Shown here in pieces: positions 6,698 through 44,369 of a DNA stretch of 64,000 nucleotides (its first letter is position 1; every line of letters starts with the position of its first letter). The notes under the pieces were generated by a model. That model ran no database searches, was not told the origin of the DNA, and worked only from the letters and a program-made list of their open reading frames with translations. The stretch lies in contig JBAZKE010000002.1 in assembly GCA_041650915.1 (NCBI GenBank), positions 16,638 through 80,637 of the forward strand, written 5' to 3'. This DNA comes from Patescibacteria group bacterium (lineage in GTDB: Bacteria > Patescibacteriota > Patescibacteriia > UBA10025 > JAHIVO01). The position numbers were made by a program, and so were the translations under genes.

Positions 6698-6773
6698 TGG
6701 TGGGCGCAGATGGATTTGAACCATCGACCCCCACTTTATAAGAGTGGTGCTCTAACCGCTGAGCTATGCGCCC
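6698..6773 (-). tRNA. tRNA-Ile (anticodon UAU) with encoded CCA
   Basis: Manual fold: GGGCGCA-TA-GCTCAGCGGTTAGAGC-A-CCACT-CTTATAA-AGTGG-GGGTC-GATGG-TTCAAAT-CCATC-TGCGCCC-A-CCA. The anticodon loop is CU-UAU-AA. Confidence 0.7.
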
Positions 6774-33040: not shown

Positions 33041-33117
33041 GGGCGATTAGCTCAGGTGGTTAGAGCGCGTCACTGATAATGACGAGGTCCCAGGTTCGAA
33101 TCCTGGATCGCCCACCA
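33041..33117 (+). tRNA. tRNA-Ile (anticodon GAU) with encoded CCA
   Basis: GGGCGAT-TA-GCTCAGGTGGTTAGAGC-G-CGTCA-CTGATAA-TGACG-AGGTC-CCAGG-TTCGAAT-CCTGG-ATCGCCC-A-CCA. Confidence 0.9.
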
Positions 33118-34023: not shown

Positions 34024-34100
34024 CGGGGTGTGGCGCAGTTGGCTAGCGCGCGCGCTTTGGGAGCGCGAGGTCCCGAGTTCAAGTCTCGGCACCCCGACCA
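34024..34100 (+). tRNA. tRNA-Pro (anticodon UGG) with encoded CCA
   Basis: CGGGGTG-TG-GCGC-AGTTGGCTA-GCGC-G-CGCGC-TTTGGGA-GCGCG-AGGTC-CCGAG-TTCAAGT-CTCGG-CACCCCG-A-CCA. The C1:G72 pair is typical of tRNA-Pro. Confidence 0.9.
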
Positions 34101-34114
34101 ATTAAGGCATTCTC

Positions 34115-34531
34115 ATGAAGGAAAAACCCCTCATTGGTACTGCGGCGATTATTGTGCGAAATGGCCGTGTTTTGCTTGGGAAAAGAAAAAACTCCCACGG
34201 GCACGGTGACTGGGGTTTTCCCGGCGGACACCTCGAATTTGGTGAAGCACCCGAAGATTGCATTCGGAGGGAAGTGCGCGAAGAGACGGGACTGGCCGTG
34301 CGATCAATCACGGCAGCACCGTACACCAACGACTACTTTCCGGAAAAAAATAAACACTACGTTACCCTCTTTTTTATCGTCACCTGCAAACCAGGGGAAC
34401 CAATCATTAGAGAATCTGAAAAGCTCGAGCGATGGGAGTGGTATCCTTGGGACAAGCTGCCCGACAATCTTTTCCTGCCGATACGAAACCTCCTCAAGAG
34501 GGGCTTCAACCCCGTGAGGATAAATACCTAA
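34115..34531 (+). CDS. NUDIX hydrolase
   Basis: Nudix box GGHLEFGEAPEDCIRREVREETG. Confidence 0.8.
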   Translation: MKEKPLIGTAAIIVRNGRVLLGKRKNSHGHGDWGFPGGHLEFGEAPEDCIRREVREETGLAVRSITAAPYTNDYFPEKNKHYVTLFFIVTCKPGEPIIRESEKLERWEWYPWDKLPDNLFLPIRNLLKRGFNPVRINT

Positions 34532-34549
34532 TCAACTACCCTTTCATAT

Positions 34550-35563
34550 ATGCTCCAGGAGCCCCATGCATGCGCCCAGTGCGAAAAAGCCGGGCAGCCG
34601 CTGAGGTTCGGCCGTAAACTCAAACTCTACAGCGCTCTCTTCGTGGGCATTTTTGCGATTTCATTTTTGCCGTTCCTCGGGAAGCTGAACGAAAGCCTCA
34701 CCGACTACCTCAAGCTGATCTGGTGGGCGATTCTGCTCGGCTTCGTGCTCGGCGGTATCATTGACTTCTTTATACCAGAAGGGTTCATCTTCAAGTACCT
34801 CGGGCGCAAGCGGAAACGGTCACTGCTGTTTGCAGTCGCCGCCGGTTTTCTCATGTCAGCGTGTTCGCATGGAATCCTCGCGATCGCAATCCAACTCTAC
34901 AAAAAAGGGGCGAACATCCCGGCGGTTATTACGTTCCTGCTTGCCTCGCCGTGGGCAAACTTACCGGTGACTATTTTACTGTTCGGCTTCTTTGGATGGA
35001 AGGCGCTTCTCTTCATACTCGCCGCGGTGGTCATTGCGCTTATCACCGGCCTCATCTACATGGCGCTCGAACGGGCGCAGATGATCGAACCGTCCAGAAT
35101 AGTGCCGCCCGAGATGCAAGCTTACGAGTGGAACCACATAAAAAACTTCAAATTCAAAACAGCGTTGAGGGGTACTATCAATGGCGCAATCAAGCTGGCC
35201 AACATGGTGCTGTGGTGGCTCATCATCGGAACCGTGCTCGCTGCGGTTATCGGCGCTTACGTGCCTGAGCATGTCTTCCACAATTACTTCGGACCGACGC
35301 TATTCGGCCTGGTCCTCACGCTCCTCGCAGCTACGGTCATTGAAGTGTGCAGCGAAGGGAGCGCCCCGATCGCGTTCGAGCTCTTCACCAAACTCGGCGT
35401 ACTCGGCAATCCGTTCGTATTCCTCATGGCTGGCGTAGCGACTGACTATACCGAAATCGGCCTTCTCTGGACTAACATCGGCAAAAAAACAGCGCTCTGG
35501 CTCCCGGTAGTAGCGGTCCCCCAAATCGTCGCCGTCGGAATACTTTTTAACGCATTCCTCTAA
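34550..35563 (+). CDS. Predicted permease (DUF318/ArsP-like family)
   Basis: Polytopic, with the conserved SACSHG...LLASPWAN segments typical of that family. This is from recall and needs an HMM check. Confidence 0.55.
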   Translation: MLQEPHACAQCEKAGQPLRFGRKLKLYSALFVGIFAISFLPFLGKLNESLTDYLKLIWWAILLGFVLGGIIDFFIPEGFIFKYLGRKRKRSLLFAVAAGFLMSACSHGILAIAIQLYKKGANIPAVITFLLASPWANLPVTILLFGFFGWKALLFILAAVVIALITGLIYMALERAQMIEPSRIVPPEMQAYEWNHIKNFKFKTALRGTINGAIKLANMVLWWLIIGTVLAAVIGAYVPEHVFHNYFGPTLFGLVLTLLAATVIEVCSEGSAPIAFELFTKLGVLGNPFVFLMAGVATDYTEIGLLWTNIGKKTALWLPVVAVPQIVAVGILFNAFL

Positions 35564-35574
35564 CGATATCCGCC

Positions 35575-36075
35575 ATGGTACTTACTGCAATCTCCAAGCG
35601 TCGTGCGGTCCGGAAATTCAAACCCGACCCAGTCCCCGAAAACATGATTGATGAAATTATTACGGCGGCACAATATGCGCCAACCTCGCGCAACAACCGC
35701 GCAACGGAATTCATTGTCGTGCAGGACCCTGCGATACGCCTCAAGGTCTACGAAGCAGCCGAGCCGCACCAGGACTTCGTACGGGAAGCCCCGCTCATCA
35801 TCGTGCCAGTTGCCAACCCTGAAAAAACCAACAATCCTGTCCAGGACCTTTCGCTCGCCACGGGGCATATCCTGCTCCAGGCGGCTGATCTGCAGCTTGG
35901 CGGCGTCTGGAAAAACCTTAAACCCGATTCTGCGCGCGCGGTCCGGGATGCGCTCGGTATCCCACAAAATTGCACAATCATCAATTGTATCCCTATCGGT
36001 TTCCCGAGTGGGCAACCGGACCCCCACACAAAAAGCGAGTGTACTCCCGCACGCATACACAGGGACCGGTGGTAG
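35575..36075 (+). CDS. Nitroreductase-family protein
   Basis: KRRAVRKF...APTSRNNRATEFIVV is the FMN-binding nitroreductase signature. Confidence 0.7.
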   Translation: MVLTAISKRRAVRKFKPDPVPENMIDEIITAAQYAPTSRNNRATEFIVVQDPAIRLKVYEAAEPHQDFVREAPLIIVPVANPEKTNNPVQDLSLATGHILLQAADLQLGGVWKNLKPDSARAVRDALGIPQNCTIINCIPIGFPSGQPDPHTKSECTPARIHRDRW

Positions 36076-36124
36076 CACGGAGTACGGACGAACACATTGA
36101 AGCCGCAAATGCGGCATTCCCATT

Positions 36125-36445
36125 ATGAATTTTTACGACAAAGTCTACCATACGGTGAAAAAAATTCCCCGCGGCAAGGTAGCGACGTACGGGCAGATTG
36201 CCGCGCTCGTCGGCTCACCGCGGGGCGCCCGCATGGTAGGCTGGGCATTGCACGCGATGGACGACGGCAAGCTCGAACACATTCCGTGGCAGCGCGTTAT
36301 TAACAGGGAGGGGCGCATTAGCACCACGTGCGAAGTGCACCCGCCAGCTGAACAGGCCCGGCTGCTGCAGAAAGACGGCGTGCCCGTGACTTGCCGCGAT
36401 GGGCATTTCTCCATTGATTTGGAAAAACACTTGTGGCTGGCATAG
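36125..36445 (+). CDS. Alkyltransferase-like protein (MGMT DNA-binding domain lacking the catalytic Cys: PWQRV instead of PCHRV)
   Basis: The helix-turn-helix KVATYGQIAALVGSPRGARMVG and IPWQRVI. Confidence 0.65.
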   Translation: MNFYDKVYHTVKKIPRGKVATYGQIAALVGSPRGARMVGWALHAMDDGKLEHIPWQRVINREGRISTTCEVHPPAEQARLLQKDGVPVTCRDGHFSIDLEKHLWLA

Positions 36446-36446
36446 T

Positions 36447-38471
36447 ATGAAGCTGCTGCAAAAAAATATTAACCCATACCTACAGGCGATTATTCTCACC
36501 GTGCTCGTCGTGGTAATCGTGCTGACCGGCGCGAACGTTTACCGGTACTGTATGAGCGTACAAACCCCTGCGGCGCACGAAAACTACGCTTATAATTCTG
36601 TGTGTTCGAGCCACAAAATCATCGGGCAGGAATCTCCCCAAACGGCATTTATAGAAACTGCGCCGCCGGACTACTCGGTACAGAAGGCAACTTACCGCGC
36701 GAGCGTCTCACTCAACGATGGGCTGCTCACGGTATATGGCAACAACGGCGATGAGCTCATGCAGTCTGCGCTCACTGATGCATACGTTGACGTTTGCGGA
36801 TCCAGCCTCTTGCGCGATAGTCAGCCACAGCTCAATGTTGTTGACGAAAACAGTATCGAAGTGGCCTACCACTATCATGACGGCTCATCGCTGCGGCTGA
36901 AAATGCAATTTTATGATACTTTTTTTACGTATGTTCCTGAAATCTCGGTCGTGAATGGCCACAAGCTGGCGGGGCAATCCTTTTTTAAACCGCATTTTAA
37001 GGGAAATACAGTCGGCATCCTGAATCCGGACGCAGCAGCGGAAGCTGAGCAGGGGATTTTTCAGCAGCACCAAGTCCCCTCAACCGCCGATCGCCACCTC
37101 ACCACGAGCGTCCTGTGGCAGCGGCAATACGGCGATGAGTACATTTTTTCCCCGACAACCGATGCATGGTACGTGCTATCAGAAAAAAATACCGTGCTCC
37201 ACGGGCTGGCTGAGATTAACCGTGCATCAGGCATTGATATCATCGTGCCGAAAAACAGTACCGATATCACGTACCACTACGCAAACATTTCAGGCGAACA
37301 AACGCAGCTGTCTCCGGCAACTGCTTTCAGCGGCATGCAGAGCATCGTCGTTGTAACGGAGTCAAGCAGTGCGGTCGATGCTTTCCAGAGCTACTATGAC
37401 GCGCTTTCCAGACTCGGCCTGACGGCAGCACATGCCTATAATACGGCCCAATGGTGGAACGGCGGCGTATACTGCAACTGGTTCGAGCACCACGCAATCG
37501 AGAAAACAACCGAGGAAGAAATTGAGTCCGCGCTCACCTCCCTCGAACAAAAGGGAATCATTATAAAAACTGTCGTGATAGATGAGGGATGGGCTGCGAT
37601 CAATGGAGACTGGACAGAAAACCGAGAACGGTTTCCGGGCGGTCTTCGGCAATACATTGATTCACTGCATGATCGCGGCTATAAGGTTATGCTTCACTTT
37701 ATTCCCTTCAGCGTACAGTATACGGATATCCGCGAATCCGACTCACCGCTACTCCCGGCCGTACAAACGCTCACACGCACCCTGATCGACTACAGTGATC
37801 CGCTCGTCCGGGGCTACATTCGCGATGCTATCAAACGCATGCTCTCTGATGCGTCAAAAAGTTACAATGCTGACGGCCTCAAACTCGACTTCGTTTTTGA
37901 CCTCCCGCCCTCACATTCTTCAGTGCGATATAAAGACGCTACGTGGGGCCGCGGCGAGGACTACGTGCACAACTCGCTCACGTGGATTTACGAAACCGCA
38001 AAGGAAATAAAACCCGATGCACTCATTGTCGGCGAGGGCGTGAATCCATTTTTCCAGGACGCCTACGACGCAAACCGCACCAACGATATCACCGCGGTAA
38101 CAACCCTCGAGGGAGCGCTCATGAGGGAAAAAATCCAGCAGATCCTTATGCCTGAACTCATGAGTTTTAATGACCTGTACAGCGAGCGATCGTGGAACTT
38201 TACGGAAGCAGCTTACCAGTATGCATACGCGATTCCGCACATTGTTTTCAAGGTCGGCGATCTGGACGATCAAGACATTGAAGAGGCGGTGTGCCTGTCA
38301 CGAGCATATGACCGGGTCAAAAACGATCTCGTAAAAAAACAAGTGGCAAATCCATTTTCCCGTGCTGACGGAATCAATGCCCAGGGAGACGTGATTTGGG
38401 ACATTAGTGATGATGGTAAGACGGTGCATATTACGGCAGACGATGAAGTAATCATATGTCGCCAGAGCTAA
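36447..38471 (+). CDS. Membrane-anchored extracytoplasmic protein with a C-terminal glycoside-hydrolase-like TIM-barrel (alpha-galactosidase-like clan GH-D motifs)
   Basis: N-terminal signal-anchor (ILTVLVVVIVLTGA), VVIDEGW....FPGGL....GYKVMLHF and GLKLDF motifs. Confidence 0.4.
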   Translation: MKLLQKNINPYLQAIILTVLVVVIVLTGANVYRYCMSVQTPAAHENYAYNSVCSSHKIIGQESPQTAFIETAPPDYSVQKATYRASVSLNDGLLTVYGNNGDELMQSALTDAYVDVCGSSLLRDSQPQLNVVDENSIEVAYHYHDGSSLRLKMQFYDTFFTYVPEISVVNGHKLAGQSFFKPHFKGNTVGILNPDAAAEAEQGIFQQHQVPSTADRHLTTSVLWQRQYGDEYIFSPTTDAWYVLSEKNTVLHGLAEINRASGIDIIVPKNSTDITYHYANISGEQTQLSPATAFSGMQSIVVVTESSSAVDAFQSYYDALSRLGLTAAHAYNTAQWWNGGVYCNWFEHHAIEKTTEEEIESALTSLEQKGIIIKTVVIDEGWAAINGDWTENRERFPGGLRQYIDSLHDRGYKVMLHFIPFSVQYTDIRESDSPLLPAVQTLTRTLIDYSDPLVRGYIRDAIKRMLSDASKSYNADGLKLDFVFDLPPSHSSVRYKDATWGRGEDYVHNSLTWIYETAKEIKPDALIVGEGVNPFFQDAYDANRTNDITAVTTLEGALMREKIQQILMPELMSFNDLYSERSWNFTEAAYQYAYAIPHIVFKVGDLDDQDIEEAVCLSRAYDRVKNDLVKKQVANPFSRADGINAQGDVIWDISDDGKTVHITADDEVIICRQS

Positions 38472-38626
38472 CCTATTGACGGATAGAAAATACTCTGGCA
38501 GTCTTACTAGTACCATTCGTCACACCGAGTTCGCCTCGTCGTGACGAGGAAGAAGAGAAATGTGTGCGTACGGCGCAGTTTCTCCGCGCGCGCGGAGAAA
38601 CGAAATCTGCAGCGCCATGTGGACGC

Positions 38627-38697
38627 GCGGGTATCGTATAGTGGTAATACCACAGCTTTCCAAGCTGTTGCCGGGGGTTCGATTCCCCCTACCCGCT
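38627..38697 (+). tRNA. tRNA-Gly (anticodon UCC), no encoded CCA
   Basis: GCGGGTA-TC-GTAT-AGTGGTA-ATAC-C-ACAGC-TTTCCAA-GCTGT-TGCC-GGGGG-TTCGATT-CCCCC-TACCCGC-T. Confidence 0.85.
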
Positions 38698-39262: not shown

Positions 39263-39772
39263 ATGATTGGATCATTCCACCCTCGTTCAACAAAAGCAAA
39301 ACACATAATCATCACCGTAGCGATCATGATCATGTGGCAGTTCTCATTTCCCTCGAGCGCTGCTGCAGTCGAGCTTAATGAGAGCGCCATGCCTGCTGAT
39401 ACAGCCACCAATGAATCGGCAGCGGCAGAACCGAAGCCTGTTCTCCGGCTCCCGGAAACACCAGACAAGCCTAGACCTGAAGCAAAACGGACGCTGCAAA
39501 TAACCGTAACAGCCTACTCATCAACCCCGGACCAAACATCGGGCGATCCGTTCATAACGGCATCAGGCTCACGGGTACATGATGGCGTGATCGCGGCAAA
39601 TTTTCTTCCGATCGGGACAAAAGTCAGGTTCCCGGAAAAATTTGGCGATAAAATCTTCACCGTAGAAGACCGCACGCACGCACGGTACTGGCAGCGCGCT
39701 GACATCTGGATGGAGACGCGGGAAGCGGCATTACAGTGGGGAGTGCAATATACGACGATTGAAATCCTCTAA
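39263..39772 (+). CDS. Secreted 3D-domain protein (MltA/YuiC-like RlpA-type double-psi beta-barrel)
   Basis: Hydrophobic N-terminal segment, ITVTAYSSTPDQTSGDPFITASG...IAANFLPIGTKVRFPE.FGDKIFTVEDRT is 3D-domain like. Family recalled from memory. Confidence 0.5.
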   Translation: MIGSFHPRSTKAKHIIITVAIMIMWQFSFPSSAAAVELNESAMPADTATNESAAAEPKPVLRLPETPDKPRPEAKRTLQITVTAYSSTPDQTSGDPFITASGSRVHDGVIAANFLPIGTKVRFPEKFGDKIFTVEDRTHARYWQRADIWMETREAALQWGVQYTTIEIL

Positions 39773-40477: not shown

Positions 40478-42019
40478 ATGAATATCAAATTTCTCCTCAC
40501 CGCCCTAGTGGCGCCCTCTCTTCTGTGCGCCTGCATCATGCCGGCAGCCGCGCAGGAGCTGCCGACGCTCGAAACTCTCGGCCCGCTCGAGCAGGAGACG
40601 AACGAACTCTCTCCGGCCATTACATCGGATGAGTACATTGCCGTCAATAAAAAAGCCCTGTTCGATGCGTCCGAATCGACCCTCCTCGATACAACGGCAG
40701 AACCGGTATACCGCTGGGATTTTTCTGATGTCTCGGGTGCGCAGTTTGGCAAAGAAGTCGTGCATGAATTCGAACAAACGGGCATCCACCGCATCACCTT
40801 GACCATTCAGCAAGGGGAATTTCGTGCAACGGCAGAAAAGGAAATCTTTGCCTACGATAAAAAAATTTTCATGGTTACCGACCGTGACGTCGAGCAGGAA
40901 TTCCAGCTCATCGTGAACCAGGCTGCACACAATGGCGTTCTGCTGAAAATAGTATCGGGAGTGGAAGAAGAGACCGGCTTCCTTACGGAAGAAAAGCTCG
41001 TTCCCCTCATCAGCGAGGAAAGTGAATTCATTCGTGAAGCCGACGTGCTGCTCTTCTACGCGGACTCATCACTCGGCCTCCAAGGCTTTACGCGGTACTG
41101 GCAGAGCCTCGATGCCGATAAAAAAATCGATCTCAAACAAAAACTCATCATTAAAATCAGTGACCAGAATATGGGCATCGCCGCAAAGCTCGCCCAGCAG
41201 TCATTCGAGGTTATGGATCCGCAATACATCATTGTGACCCGCAAGGAAGCGCTCAATCCAATCTTTGAAAATGATGATGCGAACCTGCTCACGACCGAAT
41301 TTGACCGGCGCGCCATCGAGTATCGGATCGTTGACGCGCGGAGTGAAAAGCCGTATGCCTTCTTCTTGTCCCACGCGGTCACAAACTTCATCGCAAAGGG
41401 AATTCCGACGAATACCATCTATCTCATCCTCGCATTCCCCTTCATCGCATTCGTCGTCACGTTTGCGAGGCAGGTGATCGGCCTGTCTTCGTTTGGCGTT
41501 TTCACGCCATCGCTCATCGCGCTCGCACTCATCATCCTTGGCATTTACTTCGGAATCGGCACGCTCATCGTTGTCATCGTCGTGAGCTACCTCCTCCGGC
41601 TCATACTCAACAAGTTCAAGCTGCTTTACATACCGAAGACCGCCCTCATCCTATCAGTGACCGCCCTCTCATTCCTCGGGATTATTTGGTTCCTGTCATA
41701 CTATCGGGTCTCGTTAGCCGTCTCACTTGCGATTTTTCCGATGCTTGTCATGTCTACAATCTCCGAAAAATTCATATCCGCACAGTCTGAGGAAGGCTTC
41801 CGCGAAGCGCTGTTTGGCGTCTTCACGACCGTGCTGCTCGCCATAGCCGGCTACTACCTCGTCGTATGGAACGCATTCAACGACCTCATTATGTCATGGC
41901 CTGAGCTCATCATACTGCCGCTTATCGGCATGGTGCTCATCGGAAAATTTACAGGCCTTCGGCTGACTGAATACTTCAGGTTCAGGAGCCTGTTCAAGGA
42001 AAAAAACGTAGAAGAGTAA
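40478..42019 (+). CDS. Membrane protein with an N-terminal signal peptide, a ~300-aa extracytoplasmic region and a C-terminal 7-TM bundle; architecture consistent with the 'inactive transglutaminase fused to 7TM' family
   Basis: Signal peptide MNIKFLLTALVAPSLLCAC, then about 7 hydrophobic helices between residues ~330 and 500. The family assignment rests on architecture and on the neighbouring ATP-grasp gene; there is no motif-level confirmation. Confidence 0.5.
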   Translation: MNIKFLLTALVAPSLLCACIMPAAAQELPTLETLGPLEQETNELSPAITSDEYIAVNKKALFDASESTLLDTTAEPVYRWDFSDVSGAQFGKEVVHEFEQTGIHRITLTIQQGEFRATAEKEIFAYDKKIFMVTDRDVEQEFQLIVNQAAHNGVLLKIVSGVEEETGFLTEEKLVPLISEESEFIREADVLLFYADSSLGLQGFTRYWQSLDADKKIDLKQKLIIKISDQNMGIAAKLAQQSFEVMDPQYIIVTRKEALNPIFENDDANLLTTEFDRRAIEYRIVDARSEKPYAFFLSHAVTNFIAKGIPTNTIYLILAFPFIAFVVTFARQVIGLSSFGVFTPSLIALALIILGIYFGIGTLIVVIVVSYLLRLILNKFKLLYIPKTALILSVTALSFLGIIWFLSYYRVSLAVSLAIFPMLVMSTISEKFISAQSEEGFREALFGVFTTVLLAIAGYYLVVWNAFNDLIMSWPELIILPLIGMVLIGKFTGLRLTEYFRFRSLFKEKNVEE

Positions 42020-42026
42020 AACCGAT

Positions 42027-44369
42027 ATGCCGATCATACCAAAATCGTCGGGGATACTCGGCATCAACGCACGAAACCTCCTGTACGTCTCGCGCTACAA
42101 TACAAAATCGAGTAAGCTGCTGGCTGATGATAAAATCAGCACGAAATTTTTTTTGGCAACACGCGGTATCGGTACGGCAAAGCTGTACTACGCCATCAGG
42201 AACCTCGGCGAACTGCGCAACTTCAAGCCGACCCTGCTGCCGAGGCGCTTCGTCATAAAACCGAACCATGGATACGGCGGGGAGGGCATCATCGCGATCA
42301 AAGAAAAACGCGGCAGCTCGTACGTATCGACTGCGGGAAAACGGTACTCCTGGTCAGACCTCTTCGAGCACTGCGTGGGAATTCTCGACGGGCGGTACGC
42401 AATTTCCGGGCTCCATGACCAAATCATTTTCGAGGAACTCCTGGAGCAGCACGAATACTTCCAGCGATTCTCCGATAAAGGGCTCCCCGACATCCGCATC
42501 ATCGTTTTCCACTACGTGCCGGTCATTGCCATGCTCCGCCTGCCGACGGCGGAATCAGAGGGCAAGGCTAACCTTCACCTCGGCGCGATCGGCCTCGGCA
42601 TTGATATGGGCACCGGCAGAACAACATTCGCAGTCCGCAATAATAAGCTGATCAAGTATCTGCCGAATGGCGAACCTGTCCGCAGCATCATCATGCCGAA
42701 CTGGGATGAGATACTCCTCACCGCCTCCAGGACGCAGCACCTGACGCAGATCGGCTACCTCGCCGTAGATCTCGCACTCACGAAAACCGGGATTAAAATC
42801 CTGGAACTCAACGCCCGTGCCGGGCTCGCAATCCAAATATCAAACCAAGGCCTCCTCAGGAACAGGCTCGAGAAACTCTCTGACGTCAAGGTTATCTCGC
42901 CCGCCGAAGGCGTAAAGCTCGGCAAAGCGCTCTTCACCCGCGTCATTAAAGATTCGAAGAAAAAAGTGGCAGCCGAAAAGCCTACCATCGGCCTCTTTGA
43001 GTACGTGACGGTTCTGAGCGGCAGGGGCGGGCACGCGCTCGCAAAGGTTGATCCGCACGGCCAGCAAACGCTGATCGACCGAGGCTTGCAGCTCGACGAA
43101 AACGAACGCCTCCTCCCTATCAAGCTGAAAGGCGTCAAGCTGCAAATTCCTTTTGAACGTATGGACCTCTCACAGGCTGACCATAAAATCATACTCTCCG
43201 GCAAACACCTGCGGGATTTCCTTATTGACACGACGCAAACGCCTGATCCGTATGCCGCTGCGATATGGGTCGAAAGCAGGGCAGAAAAAATTATCCACAA
43301 TGTCGATAAAAAGCTCACCGATATCAACGGCGGCATCCGCCTCTTGGCACGGCTGAAGCCGCTCAACCTCCTCGAAGAGCAGCGGCGATTCTATAAAAAC
43401 CCTACAAGCTCCCCAAAATTCATATACCACCGCGATGCCGCGAGCATACAGAATTTACGCAGCGAATTGAAACGCATCCCGCGCAGCGTGGACCATCCGC
43501 TCATGCCGCTCTATTTAAAAAAAATTGAGGAGCTCTCGAGCAAACTGTCACTGCTTGACGCAGTCGGCAGCAGGGAAATCGAAATACATTCTCGGATGGT
43601 ATACGGGGATGTCACGGACACTGAATACCAGGAAGCGAAAACGCTCCTCAACAACCTGCACCCGAAGCCGGATGCGAGCAAGAAGCTCGGCATCGATGAA
43701 ATAACGTCTCGGCTTGAAACCTACCTGCGAGAAAATAAGCTCAACAAGTGGAAAATAAAACTCCTCGCGAGTACGACCGCCGACATGCAGATCAACAAGC
43801 AGAACACGATCCTCATCAATGAAAAGGTAAAATTCTCGGAGAATAGGCTCCGCGCACTCATCGCGCACGAGGTGGAAACGCACATCTACCGCCTCGAAAA
43901 CGGACGGGAACAACTGTATAAACTCTTTGAGCAGGGAACGGCAGGATATCTCCAGACGGAAGAGGGAATCGCCATGTACAACCAGCAGAAACTCGGCATA
44001 CCGCTCGGATCGAAAGAAGGCTGGCCAGCGCTCAACGTCATCGCCGTACATATGGGAAAGAGCATGTCATTTGCCGAACTCTTCCTCTACCTGTGCGACG
44101 AGTATGACGTAGACCGGGATACCGCTTGGAAAATTTGCACCAAGGTCAAGCGCGGGCTCCAGGACACGAGCGAGCATGCCGTATTTACCAAAGACCTCGT
44201 ATACTACACCGGCTACCGGAGCATCGAACGTTTTGTCCGCGAGCACGGCGAGCGGGCCCTCCAGAAGCTCTACGTAGGCAAAATAGGCGTCGATGATATC
44301 TTTATCATCGAAAAGATTAAAATGCAGAAGCCCAAGCTCCTGCCCGAGTACCTGCGACAGCTCCCATAG
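42027..44369 (+). CDS. Fusion protein: N-terminal RimK-like ATP-grasp (alpha-L-glutamate-ligase-related) plus a C-terminal domain with HExxH and a QEGLA-like motif (DUF1704-like)
   Basis: N-terminal GINARNLLYVSRYN...VIKPNHGYGGEGI...LELNARAGLAIQ is ATP-grasp. The C-terminus carries ALIAHEVETHIYR (HExxH) and LQTEEGIAMYNQ (QEGLA-like). Confidence 0.55.
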   Translation: MPIIPKSSGILGINARNLLYVSRYNTKSSKLLADDKISTKFFLATRGIGTAKLYYAIRNLGELRNFKPTLLPRRFVIKPNHGYGGEGIIAIKEKRGSSYVSTAGKRYSWSDLFEHCVGILDGRYAISGLHDQIIFEELLEQHEYFQRFSDKGLPDIRIIVFHYVPVIAMLRLPTAESEGKANLHLGAIGLGIDMGTGRTTFAVRNNKLIKYLPNGEPVRSIIMPNWDEILLTASRTQHLTQIGYLAVDLALTKTGIKILELNARAGLAIQISNQGLLRNRLEKLSDVKVISPAEGVKLGKALFTRVIKDSKKKVAAEKPTIGLFEYVTVLSGRGGHALAKVDPHGQQTLIDRGLQLDENERLLPIKLKGVKLQIPFERMDLSQADHKIILSGKHLRDFLIDTTQTPDPYAAAIWVESRAEKIIHNVDKKLTDINGGIRLLARLKPLNLLEEQRRFYKNPTSSPKFIYHRDAASIQNLRSELKRIPRSVDHPLMPLYLKKIEELSSKLSLLDAVGSREIEIHSRMVYGDVTDTEYQEAKTLLNNLHPKPDASKKLGIDEITSRLETYLRENKLNKWKIKLLASTTADMQINKQNTILINEKVKFSENRLRALIAHEVETHIYRLENGREQLYKLFEQGTAGYLQTEEGIAMYNQQKLGIPLGSKEGWPALNVIAVHMGKSMSFAELFLYLCDEYDVDRDTAWKICTKVKRGLQDTSEHAVFTKDLVYYTGYRSIERFVREHGERALQKLYVGKIGVDDIFIIEKIKMQKPKLLPEYLRQLP

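What the first reader, a model, noticed from the sequence alone, without database searches (positions are those of the whole stretch)
40478..44369. Two-gene peptide-ligase module: a 7TM membrane protein next to a fused ATP-grasp–HExxH/QEGLA protein
The gene at 40478-42019 encodes a signal peptide, a ~300-aa extracytoplasmic domain and a C-terminal 7-helix bundle. The adjacent 780-aa protein joins a RimK-like ATP-grasp (alpha-L-glutamate-ligase-related) to a domain with HEVETH and a QTEEGIA motif. That second domain is characteristic of the QEGLA/DUF1704 family, which other bacteria normally encode as a separate third gene next to the ATP-grasp and a 7TM 'inactive transglutaminase'. So this locus looks like the function-unknown 7TM-iTGase / ATP-grasp / DUF1704 system with its last two components fused. 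The fusion argues that amide-bond ligation and the HExxH activity (peptidase or reverse reaction) are coupled on one polypeptide. The product is probably a membrane-associated peptide or amino-acid-tagged molecule that the 7TM protein handles or senses. The module sits in a tRNA-punctuated island, so it is likely horizontally acquired.
Basis: partly seen in the sequence, partly recalled or inferred. Interest (0 to 1): 0.8.

Follow-up and report, generated by a model that had tools for sequence, protein, structure and literature searches.

The report
Membrane protein with ligase–peptidase partner
A conserved two-gene operon of tiny "candidate phyla radiation" bacteria pairs a 7-helix membrane protein, whose inner tail always ends in glutamate, with one enzyme that fuses an amino-acid ligase to a tubulin-type tail-trimming peptidase, so the enzyme probably adds and removes residues on that tail.

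Summary
The ORF at 40478-42019 encodes a signal peptide, a PKD domain, an alpha/beta domain and a PF14402 7TM bundle. The ORF at 42027-44369 encodes a RimK-related ATP-grasp fused to a PF08014 domain. PF08014 (formerly DUF1704/QEGLA) is now named MATCAP, after the tubulin tyrosine/glutamate carboxypeptidase.

- The metal motif HEVETH is HExxxH, not HExxH.
- The ectodomain is not an inactive transglutaminase.
- The locus is not a horizontally acquired island. It lies among housekeeping genes, and the upstream tRNA array and downstream genes are syntenic in related Kerfeldbacteria.

I found no split three-gene version. Proteobacterial relatives (RloABC) use a secreted retropepsin instead, and standalone MATCAP genes sit elsewhere.

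New results:
- The pair is a Patescibacteria-wide operon, adjacent in 75 of 80 species loci.
- All 166 distinct 7TM C-termini end in Glu, and 140 end in Glu-Glu. This does not come from a ribosome-binding-site constraint.
- The nearest structural relatives, RimK, LysX/ArgX and MATCAP, all act on protein C-terminal Glu tails.

Best reading (about 0.45): the fused enzyme writes and erases residues on the 7TM protein's own cytoplasmic tail. This is a new variant of the Rlo/RimK kind.

The parts
40478..42019 (+). Gene for the 513-aa membrane protein: signal sequence, PKD domain, alpha/beta domain, 7TM bundle (PF14402 family) and cytoplasmic tail.
   Evidence: ORF. Translation. Pfam. AF2 model, pLDDT 87.9. 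120 CPR homologues of 38-100% identity.
40619..40855 (+). Extracytoplasmic PKD (Ig-like beta-sandwich) domain, residues 48-126.
40859..41347 (+). Extracytoplasmic flavodoxin-like alpha/beta domain, residues 128-290. It stands where Rlo-type proteins carry the inactive transglutaminase domain.
41408..41944 (+). Seven-helix membrane bundle, residues 311-489. It includes the conserved cytoplasmic loop SEKFISAQSEEGF (429-441).
   Evidence: PF14402, 100.4 bits. Hydropathy and positive-inside count. Invariant K431 and G440, nearly invariant E430.
41945..42016 (+). Cytoplasmic C-terminal tail KFTGLRLTEYFRFRSLFKEKNVEE. The terminal Glu-Glu codons are at 42011-42016. This tail is the proposed acceptor or recognition element for the enzyme encoded next door.
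   Evidence: The last residue is Glu in 166/166 distinct homologue tails and the penultimate is Glu in 140/166, while positions -3 to -7 vary (entropy about 3 bits). Background ORFs end in E 6.3% of the time and in EE 0.5%. Not a Shine-Dalgarno effect.
42027..44369 (+). Gene for the 780-aa fusion protein: ATP-grasp ligase, small beta domain, MATCAP-family metallocarboxypeptidase.
   Evidence: AF2 model, pLDDT 88.8. All 120 listed homologues (761-811 aa) have the same two-domain architecture. All 80 species loci are full-length fusions.
42045..42941 (+). RimK-related ATP-grasp domain (TIGR02291-like), residues 7-305, with a conserved N-terminal helical segment (GINARN...).
   Evidence: TIGR02291, E 9e-73. 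PF14397, E 1.5e-56. Foldseek hits to RimK, the RimK-RpsF complex and ArgX/LysX. Invariant K78, E136, E137, D248, E260, N262 and R264.
42984..43211 (+). Beta-rich middle domain, residues 320-395. It may be a shortened, catalytically degenerate RimB/RloA-type retropepsin remnant, with DPH in place of DTG.
   Evidence: Beta strands in the AF2 model. Weak collinear hhalign matches to two RloA proteins, E 0.002-0.02. No Pfam hit. Tentative.
43278..44366 (+). MATCAP-family (PF08014, formerly DUF1704/QEGLA) gluzincin-type carboxypeptidase domain, residues 418-780.
   Evidence: PF08014, E 3e-42. phmmer to human MATCAP 7Z5G, E 5e-10. Foldseek top hit 7Z5G, E 5e-12.
43866..43883 (+). HEVETH, the HExxxH metal-binding and catalytic motif (H614, E615, H619).
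   Evidence: Invariant in 75 homologues. Aligns with HEIGTH of human MATCAP. The E281A mutant of human TMCP1 is used as the catalytically inactive control (PMC10499314).
43953..43973 (+). QTEEGIA motif (Q643-A649), probably holding the third metal ligand.
   Evidence: E645, E646 and G647 are invariant. Aligns with TEEGLA of human MATCAP.

Best explanation
The two genes form one machine at the inner face of the membrane.

The 7TM protein exposes a PKD domain and an alpha/beta domain outside the cell. Its 24-residue C-terminal tail, ending in -Glu-Glu-COOH, lies in the cytoplasm.

The fused enzyme docks on the 7TM protein. Its RimK-like ATP-grasp domain ligates amino acids to the free C-terminal glutamate of that tail, using ATP. 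The added residues are most likely glutamates, though Tyr or another residue is possible. Its MATCAP-type HExxxH carboxypeptidase domain trims those residues off again.

The length or identity of the tail extension would then be a reversible mark on the membrane protein, possibly set by what the ectodomain binds.

Shown here:
- domain identities;
- intact catalytic motifs;
- operon linkage across Patescibacteria;
- cytoplasmic position of the tail;
- absolute conservation of the terminal Glu at protein level.

Inferred:
- that the tail is the substrate;
- which amino acid is added;
- that the ectodomain regulates the cycle.
For: 1. Terminal residue conservation. The last residue is Glu in 166/166 distinct tails and the penultimate is Glu in 140/166. 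The run length varies from 1 to 5, and positions -3 to -7 are unconstrained. Background ORFs end in E 6.3% and in EE 0.5% of the time.
2. The constraint acts on the protein. GAA and GAG are both used at these codons, and 15 loci with intergenic gaps of 40-940 nt keep the E(E) end.
3. The 7TM gene lies immediately upstream, on the same strand, in 75 of 80 species loci.
4. The tail is cytoplasmic. Loop charges give K+R = 12 inside against 1 outside. A Halobacterium homologue fuses the 7TM C-terminus directly to the ATP-grasp.
5. The nearest solved structures act on protein C-terminal Glu tails: human MATCAP, the RimK-RpsF complex 5ZK6, RimK, and ArgX/LysX with LysW. The MATCAP match is also significant by sequence.
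6. RimK adds Glu to the C-terminus of RpsF and RimB removes it. TMCP/MATCAP enzymes remove C-terminal Tyr and Glu from tubulin tails ending -EEY or -EE and shorten polyglutamate chains.
7. Rlo-type 7TM proteins, which have no MATCAP partner, lack the acidic end: Legionella ...AKARS, Aeromonas ...PGKDK, L096 ...DTDGH.
8. 19 of 80 loci, including the closest relatives, add one or two further RimK-like ATP-grasp genes beside the 7TM gene. This fits a multi-step tail-writing system.
Against:
- The comparison set of 7TM proteins without a MATCAP partner is small: three distinct Rlo-type tails and one archaeal fusion.
- In Proteobacteria and Halobacterium the same 7TM/ATP-grasp core works without an EE tail, so the core function of the family cannot be tail modification alone.
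- Four informative loci have the fusion without an adjacent 7TM gene (L051, L057, L085, L088).
- A conserved acidic terminus could be a docking or pseudo-substrate motif and never be modified.
Confidence: 0.45

Rival explanations
1. Poly-amino-acid synthase and exporter. The ATP-grasp polymerises free glutamate, or another amino acid, at the membrane. The 7TM protein translocates or holds the chain. The MATCAP domain controls chain length from the cytoplasmic side. The -EE tail serves as a primer, a product mimic or a gate.
For: - RimK makes free poly-alpha-glutamate as well as modifying RpsF.
- In the related Rlo system the polyglutamate-cleaving protease RloA is secreted. Loss of the 7TM protein or of the ligase suppresses protease-null phenotypes, which suggests a product that reaches the periplasm.
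- Cyanophycin synthetase is among the structural hits.
- The 7TM/ATP-grasp core exists without an EE tail in other lineages.
Against: - In the CPR version the peptidase is fused to the cytoplasmic ligase, so it cannot act on exported product.
- This model does not by itself explain why the terminal residue must be Glu in every one of 166 tails.
Confidence: 0.2
2. The enzyme acts on another target, such as ribosomal protein S6 (as RimK does), another protein, or a small molecule. The 7TM protein is only a membrane anchor or sensor that recruits or regulates it. The -EE end is a docking or autoinhibitory pseudo-substrate.
For: - RimK-family and MATCAP-family enzymes recognise acidic C-termini, so an -EE tail could bind without being turnover substrate.
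- Four loci carry the fusion without an adjacent 7TM gene.
- Standalone MATCAP genes are common in CPR and archaea with no partner nearby.
Against: - The two genes are linked in 75/80 loci with very short or overlapping junctions.
- The variable number of encoded terminal Glu (1-5) resembles an acceptor end more than a fixed docking motif.
- No rpsF was present in any DNA held here, so the S6 alternative is untested.
Confidence: 0.2
3. Cell-surface glycan or envelope amidation. As the Pfam name 'sugar-transfer associated ATP-grasp' suggests, the ligase would add amino acids to a polysaccharide or lipid-linked precursor that the 7TM protein flips.
For: - PF14397 is the best Pfam hit for the ligase domain.
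Against: - No glycosyltransferase or polysaccharide genes recur next to the module. The only neighbour family found in more than 13 of the 80 loci is an extra ATP-grasp.
- TIGR02291 (RimK-related) scores higher than PF14397.
- The partner peptidase belongs to a protein-tail carboxypeptidase family.
Confidence: 0.05

Closest known systems
RloABC operon of Pseudomonas aeruginosa and other Gammaproteobacteria (bioRxiv 10.1101/2025.03.18.643919)
   Same: It has a PF14402 7TM membrane protein next to a cytoplasmic TIGR02291-type ATP-grasp (RloC), together with a peptidase that cleaves glutamate-rich tails. Genetic evidence shows that the three act in one process.
   Different: - The Rlo peptidase is a separate, secreted retropepsin (RloA). 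Here it is a cytoplasmic MATCAP-type metallocarboxypeptidase fused to the ligase.
- The Rlo ectodomain is an inactive transglutaminase. Here it is a PKD domain plus a flavodoxin-like domain.
- RloB-type tails are not acidic.
- The RloB model scores 68 bits against a cutoff of 900.
RimK / RimB acting on ribosomal protein S6 (RpsF)
   Same: An ATP-grasp adds alpha-linked Glu to a protein ending in -Glu-Glu, and a partner peptidase removes them. RimK and the RimK-RpsF complex are the best ATP-grasp structural matches.
   Different: - The proposed acceptor here is a membrane protein encoded in the same operon, not S6.
- The eraser belongs to a different peptidase class.
- Ligase and eraser are one polypeptide.
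Tubulin tail cycle: TTL/TTLL ATP-grasp ligases with MATCAP/TMCP carboxypeptidases (PMC10499314; PDB 7Z5G, 7Z6S)
   Same: The eraser belongs to the same family, with aligned HExxxH and TEEG(L/I)A motifs. The logic is the same: an ATP-grasp writer and a carboxypeptidase eraser acting on an acidic -EE C-terminal tail.
   Different: - The ligase is RimK-like, not a TTL-family member. The only TTL Pfam hit is a weak one (E 0.006) to the extra ATP-grasp of related loci.
- No tubulin is involved.
- The added residue is unknown.
LysW / LysX-ArgX amino-group carrier system
   Same: An ATP-grasp ligates an amino acid to the C-terminal Glu of a dedicated small partner protein. ArgX and LysX are among the closest structural hits.
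   Different: - LysW is a soluble carrier for a biosynthetic pathway, and the linkage is through the gamma-carboxyl.
- No pathway genes lie nearby here.
Rhizobial plasmid cluster: N-formylglutamate amidohydrolase, QEGLA protein, glutathione-synthetase-like ATP-grasp
   Same: This is an independent pairing of a PF08014/QEGLA protein with an ATP-grasp ligase in one gene cluster.
   Different: - The genes are separate and the ATP-grasp belongs to a different subfamily.
- There is no 7TM partner.
- The QEGLA protein is longer (622 aa).

Membership tests
Pfam PF14402 7TM_transglut | Profile match above the gathering score over the 7-helix bundle. | tested here: met
   100.4 bits against a cutoff of 25, residues 313-505, profile positions 54-247 of 248.
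Pfam PF14402 7TM_transglut / RloB-type 'inactive transglutaminase' proteins | N-terminal extracytoplasmic inactive transglutaminase domain. | tested here: not met
NCBIfam NF052267 RloB | Whole-protein score above the curated cutoff. | tested here: not met
   68.2 bits against a cutoff of 900. Only the C-terminal 7TM half aligns.
RloABC system | A secreted retropepsin-like protease (RloA, PF05618) in the operon. | tested here: not met
   tblastn with two RloA proteins finds nothing in the window or in the 80 CPR loci at E up to 0.1. Only a weak internal remnant-like domain is seen in the fusion.
TIGR02291 alpha-L-glutamate ligase-like protein (RloC type) | Score above the trusted cutoff, as a hypothetical equivalog. 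| tested here: not met
   245 bits against a cutoff of 314.2, though E is 9e-73 over profile positions 9-314 of 317. It is a close relative but not an equivalog.
ATP-grasp superfamily (PF14397 ATPgrasp_ST) | Profile match, ATP-grasp fold, and conserved nucleotide and Mg-binding residues. | tested here: met
   192 bits against 31.4. Foldseek matches RimK and ArgX/LysX at E about 1e-8. K78, E136, E137, D248, E260, N262 and R264 are invariant in 75 homologues. The assignment of these residues to ATP/Mg sites is by analogy and was not mapped on coordinates.
Pfam PF08014 MATCAP (formerly DUF1704) | Profile match above the gathering score, and the fold of human MATCAP. | tested here: met
   145.3 bits against 27. 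phmmer to 7Z5G, E 5e-10. Foldseek top hit 7Z5G, E 4.8e-12, TM-score 0.63-0.65 normalised to the target.
Pfam PF08014 MATCAP (formerly DUF1704) | HExxxH motif plus a downstream Glu (TEEG) for metal binding and catalysis. | tested here: met
   H614, E615, H619, E645 and E646 are invariant and align with HEIGTH and TEEGLA of human MATCAP.
TIGR02421 QEGLA motif protein | Score above the trusted cutoff. | tested here: not met
   158.4 bits against a cutoff of 338.65, E 3e-46.
RimK-type protein C-terminal glutamylation | An acceptor protein ending in Glu-Glu that is extended by the ligase. | not testable with these tools
   A candidate acceptor with an invariant terminal Glu exists. Modification itself needs biochemistry.

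The most novel reading that the evidence does not exclude
Patescibacteria carry a prokaryotic counterpart of the tubulin tail code. An ATP-grasp writer and a MATCAP-family eraser, on one polypeptide, reversibly extend and trim the -Glu-Glu C-terminus of a dedicated 7TM surface receptor, turning extracellular input into a tail mark. This would be the first membrane-protein substrate of bacterial C-terminal (poly)glutamylation. It would also suggest a prokaryotic ancestral context for the MATCAP family, already paired with an amino-acid ligase.
Probability: 0.35. Interest if true: 0.8.

Novelty: new variant of a known kind. Interest (0 to 1): 0.62.

Why it matters
- **Known substrates are few.** According to the Rlo paper, the only bacterial proteins known to be polyglutamylated are RpsF and Legionella SdeA, and the Rlo system's own substrate is unknown. 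The CPR operon offers a concrete candidate substrate encoded next to the enzyme, and a single mass-spectrometry experiment could test it.
- **A bacterial role for MATCAP.** The finding links the recently characterised eukaryotic MATCAP/TMCP tubulin carboxypeptidases to a bacterial context in which they are physically fused to an amino-acid ligase.
- **A function for a conserved operon.** It suggests a function for a conserved surface-protein operon in the small genomes of Patescibacteria.

Tried and rejected
1. **Shine-Dalgarno explanation for the conserved GAA/GAG codons at the gene junction.** Rejected. Both synonymous codons are used, GAAGAA is the commonest form, and 15 loci with gaps of 40-940 nt keep the Glu end.
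2. **Horizontal-transfer island.** Rejected on synteny, composition and housekeeping context.
3. **Inactive transglutaminase ectodomain.** Rejected.
4. **Split three-gene version with a separate DUF1704 gene.** Searched for and not found.
   - Standalone MATCAP genes in L010-L012 have unrelated neighbours.
   - The Vibrio plasmid gene stands alone.
   - The Aeromonas MATCAP gene is far from its Rlo operon.
5. **Middle domain as a retropepsin.** Only weak profile matches (E 0.002-0.02) and no Pfam or PDB sequence hit. Kept as tentative.
6. **S6 as a rival substrate.** No rpsF is present in any held DNA, so this is untested.
7. **Widening the sample of non-CPR 7TM tails.**
   - The plasmid search gave 2 records.
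   - The metagenome scan gave 4 Aeromonas-like loci.
   - The genome scan with the standalone-MATCAP alignment failed because the alignment had no conserved stretch to search with.
8. **Other searches that led nowhere.**
   - The afdb50 fold library was unavailable.
   - The Iyer et al. 2009 amidoligase paper is not held.
   - Cluster look-up of ten divergent fusions returned no taxon names.
   - phmmer of the ATP-grasp domain alone against PDB gave only chance hits.

Full report
**1. The observation**

Two same-strand ORFs lie at 40478-42019 (513 aa) and 42027-44369 (780 aa), 7 nt apart.

The first protein has these features:
- a hydrophobic N-terminal signal sequence;
- a roughly 290-residue extracytoplasmic part;
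- seven hydrophobic segments at residues 313-489;
- a 24-residue tail.

Loop charges are K+R = 12 on the predicted inner side and 1 on the outer side, so the N-terminus is outside and the C-terminus inside. Pfam gives 7TM_transglut (PF14402, 100 bits, residues 313-505) and PKD (residues 48-121).

The second protein matches ATPgrasp_ST (PF14397, E 1.5e-56) and TIGR02291 'alpha-L-glutamate ligase-like' (E 9e-73) at its N-terminus. At its C-terminus it matches PF08014 (E 3e-42) and TIGR02421 'QEGLA' (E 3e-46). The described features are therefore real.

One detail needs correcting. HEVETH is HExxxH, not HExxH.

**2. What PF08014 is now known to be**

The former DUF1704 is now named MATCAP in Pfam, for microtubule-associated tyrosine carboxypeptidase. 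The C-terminal domain is homologous to human MATCAP/KIAA0895L both by sequence and by fold:
- By sequence, the match to 7Z5G has E 5e-10. HEVETH aligns with HEIGTH and TEEGIA aligns with TEEGLA.
- By fold, 7Z5G is the top Foldseek hit for the AF2 model (pLDDT 88.8), with E 4.8e-12.

The human enzymes are HExxxH gluzincins. They remove C-terminal Tyr, Phe, Ala or Glu from tubulin tails ending -EEY or -EE, and they shorten polyglutamate chains (PMC10499314). H614, E615, H619, E645 and E646 are invariant in 75 homologues of the window protein.

**3. The ligase domain**

After MATCAP, the best structural matches are:
- RimK, including the RimK-RpsF complex 5ZK6;
- ArgX/LysX, which ligate amino acids to the C-terminal Glu of LysW;
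- cyanophycin synthetase.

Residues K78, E136, E137, D248, E260, N262 and R264 are invariant. This fits an active ATP-grasp. I could not map these residues on coordinates, because the models are not exposed to scripts.

**4. The membrane protein**

The AF2 model (pLDDT 87.9) has five parts:

| Residues | Feature |
|---|---|
| 53-126 | PKD beta-sandwich |
| 128-290 | beta-alpha-beta domain |
| 311-491 | helical bundle |
| 496-510 | cytoplasmic helix |
| 511-513 | disordered last three residues |

**5. Organism and distribution**

Identical proteins come from a 229-kb Patescibacteria contig. All 120 listed homologues of the fusion are 761-811 aa long and carry both domains. The named ones are Kerfeld-, Magasanik-, Buchanan-, Peregrini- and Parcubacteria.

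A scan of one genome per species found 267 relatives. The best 80 are all full-length fusions in CPR lineages. Some record titles say 'uncultured Gammaproteobacteria', which I could not verify.

In 75 of these 80 loci the 7TM gene lies immediately upstream on the same strand. One exception (L083) sits at a contig edge. The other four (L051, L057, L085, L088) lack the 7TM gene.

Nineteen loci, including the closest relatives of the window, add one or two further RimK-like ATP-grasp genes of about 315 aa beside the 7TM gene. The window has none.

**6. Not an island**

The tRNA array Ile-Phe-Pro-Gly-Cys-Gly-Leu lies upstream of the module in the window. It recurs in the same order in a Kerfeldbacteria genome whose fusion protein is 56% identical. 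The proximal part (Cys-Gly-Leu, or Leu alone) recurs in further relatives at 53-58% identity.

The downstream genes are the same in that Kerfeldbacteria genome: inositol monophosphatase, metallophosphoesterase, DUF218, AP endonuclease and trigger factor. GC content is flat across the region. The rest of the window is housekeeping: GyrA, SMC, RNase Y, FtsH, S1, H+-PPase, NusA and PNPase.

**7. Fused versus split**

Among 1.84 billion cluster representatives, 2428 match the MATCAP domain. In the best 150, about 45 are fusions of roughly 780 aa and about 90 are standalone proteins of 340-380 aa.

Three standalone genes with long contigs (a CPR bacterium, an unidentified bacterium and an archaeon) have neither an ATP-grasp nor a 7TM gene nearby.

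Proteobacterial 7TM/ATP-grasp operons (a Legionella plasmid and Aeromonas) carry a PF05618 retropepsin as the third gene. This is the RloABC arrangement described for P. aeruginosa. In the Aeromonas record, the MATCAP homologue lies about 1.2 Mb from that operon.

A Halobacterium plasmid fuses the 7TM bundle directly to the ATP-grasp. Rhizobial plasmids pair a longer QEGLA protein with a glutathione-synthetase-like ATP-grasp and an N-formylglutamate amidohydrolase.

The recurring theme is a 7TM protein plus an ATP-grasp with interchangeable peptidases and, separately, MATCAP-family proteins paired with ATP-grasp ligases.

**8. The new observation**

Every homologue of the 7TM protein ends in glutamate. 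This holds for 120/120 database proteins and 75/75 species loci, which together give 166 distinct tails.

| Position from the C-terminus | Residues |
|---|---|
| -1 | Glu in 166/166 |
| -2 | Glu in 140, Gln in 20 |
| -3 to -7 | about 3 bits of entropy |

The terminal Glu run is 1 to 5 residues long. Only 6.3% of long ORFs in the same loci end in E, and 0.5% end in EE.

I tested whether this reflects a ribosome-binding site for the downstream gene. It does not, for three reasons:
- GAA and GAG are both used.
- The commonest form, GAAGAA, is a poor Shine-Dalgarno sequence.
- Fifteen loci with gaps of 40-940 nt keep the Glu end.

The three distinct Rlo-type proteins end ...AKARS...PGKDK and ...DTDGH.

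**9. Mechanism**

These facts together point to the tail as the acceptor:
- a cytoplasmic -Glu-Glu-COOH end;
- a neighbouring enzyme whose two catalytic domains belong to families that act on such ends (RimK on S6-EE; MATCAP/TMCP on tubulin -EE(Y));
- near-obligate operon linkage.

The ATP-grasp would extend the tail and the MATCAP domain would trim it. The extra ATP-grasp genes in relatives would fit separate initiating, elongating or different-residue ligases.

What is shown is the anatomy and the conservation. The modification itself, the residue added and any control by the ectodomain are inferred.

Three rivals remain:
- a poly-amino-acid synthase and exporter, suggested by the secreted RloA protease of the related system;
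- a docking or pseudo-substrate tail, with the enzyme acting on another target such as S6 (not testable here);
- glycan amidation, which has little support.

**10. The middle domain**

Residues 320-395 form a small beta domain with no Pfam hit. Profile comparison with two RloA retropepsins gives weak but collinear matches, E 0.002-0.02:
- KPxIGLxExV...AKIDPH aligns with KIIYGFIEKA...AKLDTGA.
- IILSGKHLRDFLID aligns with LLLGRQAI..IIDP.

If this is real, the CPR fusion keeps a shortened RimB/RloA-like remnant that is probably inactive (DPH in place of DTG). The MATCAP domain would then have taken over the eraser role. This is tentative.

**11. Novelty**

Public annotation names the two proteins only generically: '7TM domain-containing protein' and 'tyrosine/phenylalanine carboxypeptidase domain-containing protein'. 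Full-text searches found no paper on the CPR fusion or on the tail.

The Rlo paper states that the Rlo system's substrate is unknown and that RpsF and SdeA are the only bacterial proteins known to be polyglutamylated.

I classify the locus as a new variant of a known kind (Rlo/RimK-type ligase-peptidase systems). It comes with a specific, testable substrate hypothesis.

Noticed in passing
L013:1053-2009, L021:3491-4450, L002:4349-6463 and 16 further loci; absent from the window: A third gene recurs beside the module in 19 of 80 species loci: a standalone RimK-like ATP-grasp of about 315 aa, present in one or two copies. It lies directly upstream of the 7TM gene in the closest relatives and is divergently oriented in Magasanikbacteria. 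The window has lost it or never had it; tRNA-Leu abuts the 7TM gene.
   Followed up: partly
window 34100-38627: The segment between tRNA-Pro and tRNA-Gly(tcc) holds an ArsP-type permease, a 187-aa ORF with no family and a 690-aa GH31-like protein. The syntenic Kerfeldbacteria locus L001 has two small unrelated genes there. This is the only variable stretch inside the otherwise conserved tRNA array, and it does not include the module.
   Followed up: partly
window 6698-6773 (-): A tRNA-Ile with anticodon TAT (UAU) is present in addition to tRNA-Ile(GAT) at 33041-33117. A UAU isoleucine tRNA is unusual in bacteria, which normally read AUA with a lysidine-modified CAU tRNA.
   Followed up: no
L006:5170-6924 (Halobacterium sp. 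DL1 plasmid CP007061.1): A 584-aa unannotated ORF fuses a PF14402-like 7TM bundle, with no ectodomain, directly to a TIGR02291-like ATP-grasp. It lies between transposase genes.
   Followed up: partly
L008:5157-8901 (Aminobacter plasmid pAA02): A conserved rhizobial cluster comprises N-formylglutamate amidohydrolase, a 622-aa QEGLA/MATCAP-family protein and a glutathione-synthetase-like ATP-grasp. This is an independent ligase-MATCAP pairing. tblastn with the MATCAP domain hit 123 plasmid records, mostly Sinorhizobium and Rhizobium.
   Followed up: partly
window 39263-39772 (+): A 169-aa ORF with no Pfam match lies between tRNA-Gly(tcc) and tRNA-Cys. A 170-aa gene with no Pfam family sits at the same position in L001 (4768-5280), so it is probably a conserved gene of unknown function inside the tRNA array.
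   Followed up: no
window 41762-41800 (residues 429-441 of the 7TM protein): The cytoplasmic loop between TM5 and TM6 (SEKFISAQSEEGF) is conserved in CPR proteins. It has counterparts in the Legionella (ERMCITWDERGAGE), Aeromonas (ERMSILWEEEGPKE) and Halobacterium (DRFASDVEERGWS) proteins. It is a family-wide motif and a candidate docking site for the ATP-grasp.
   Followed up: no
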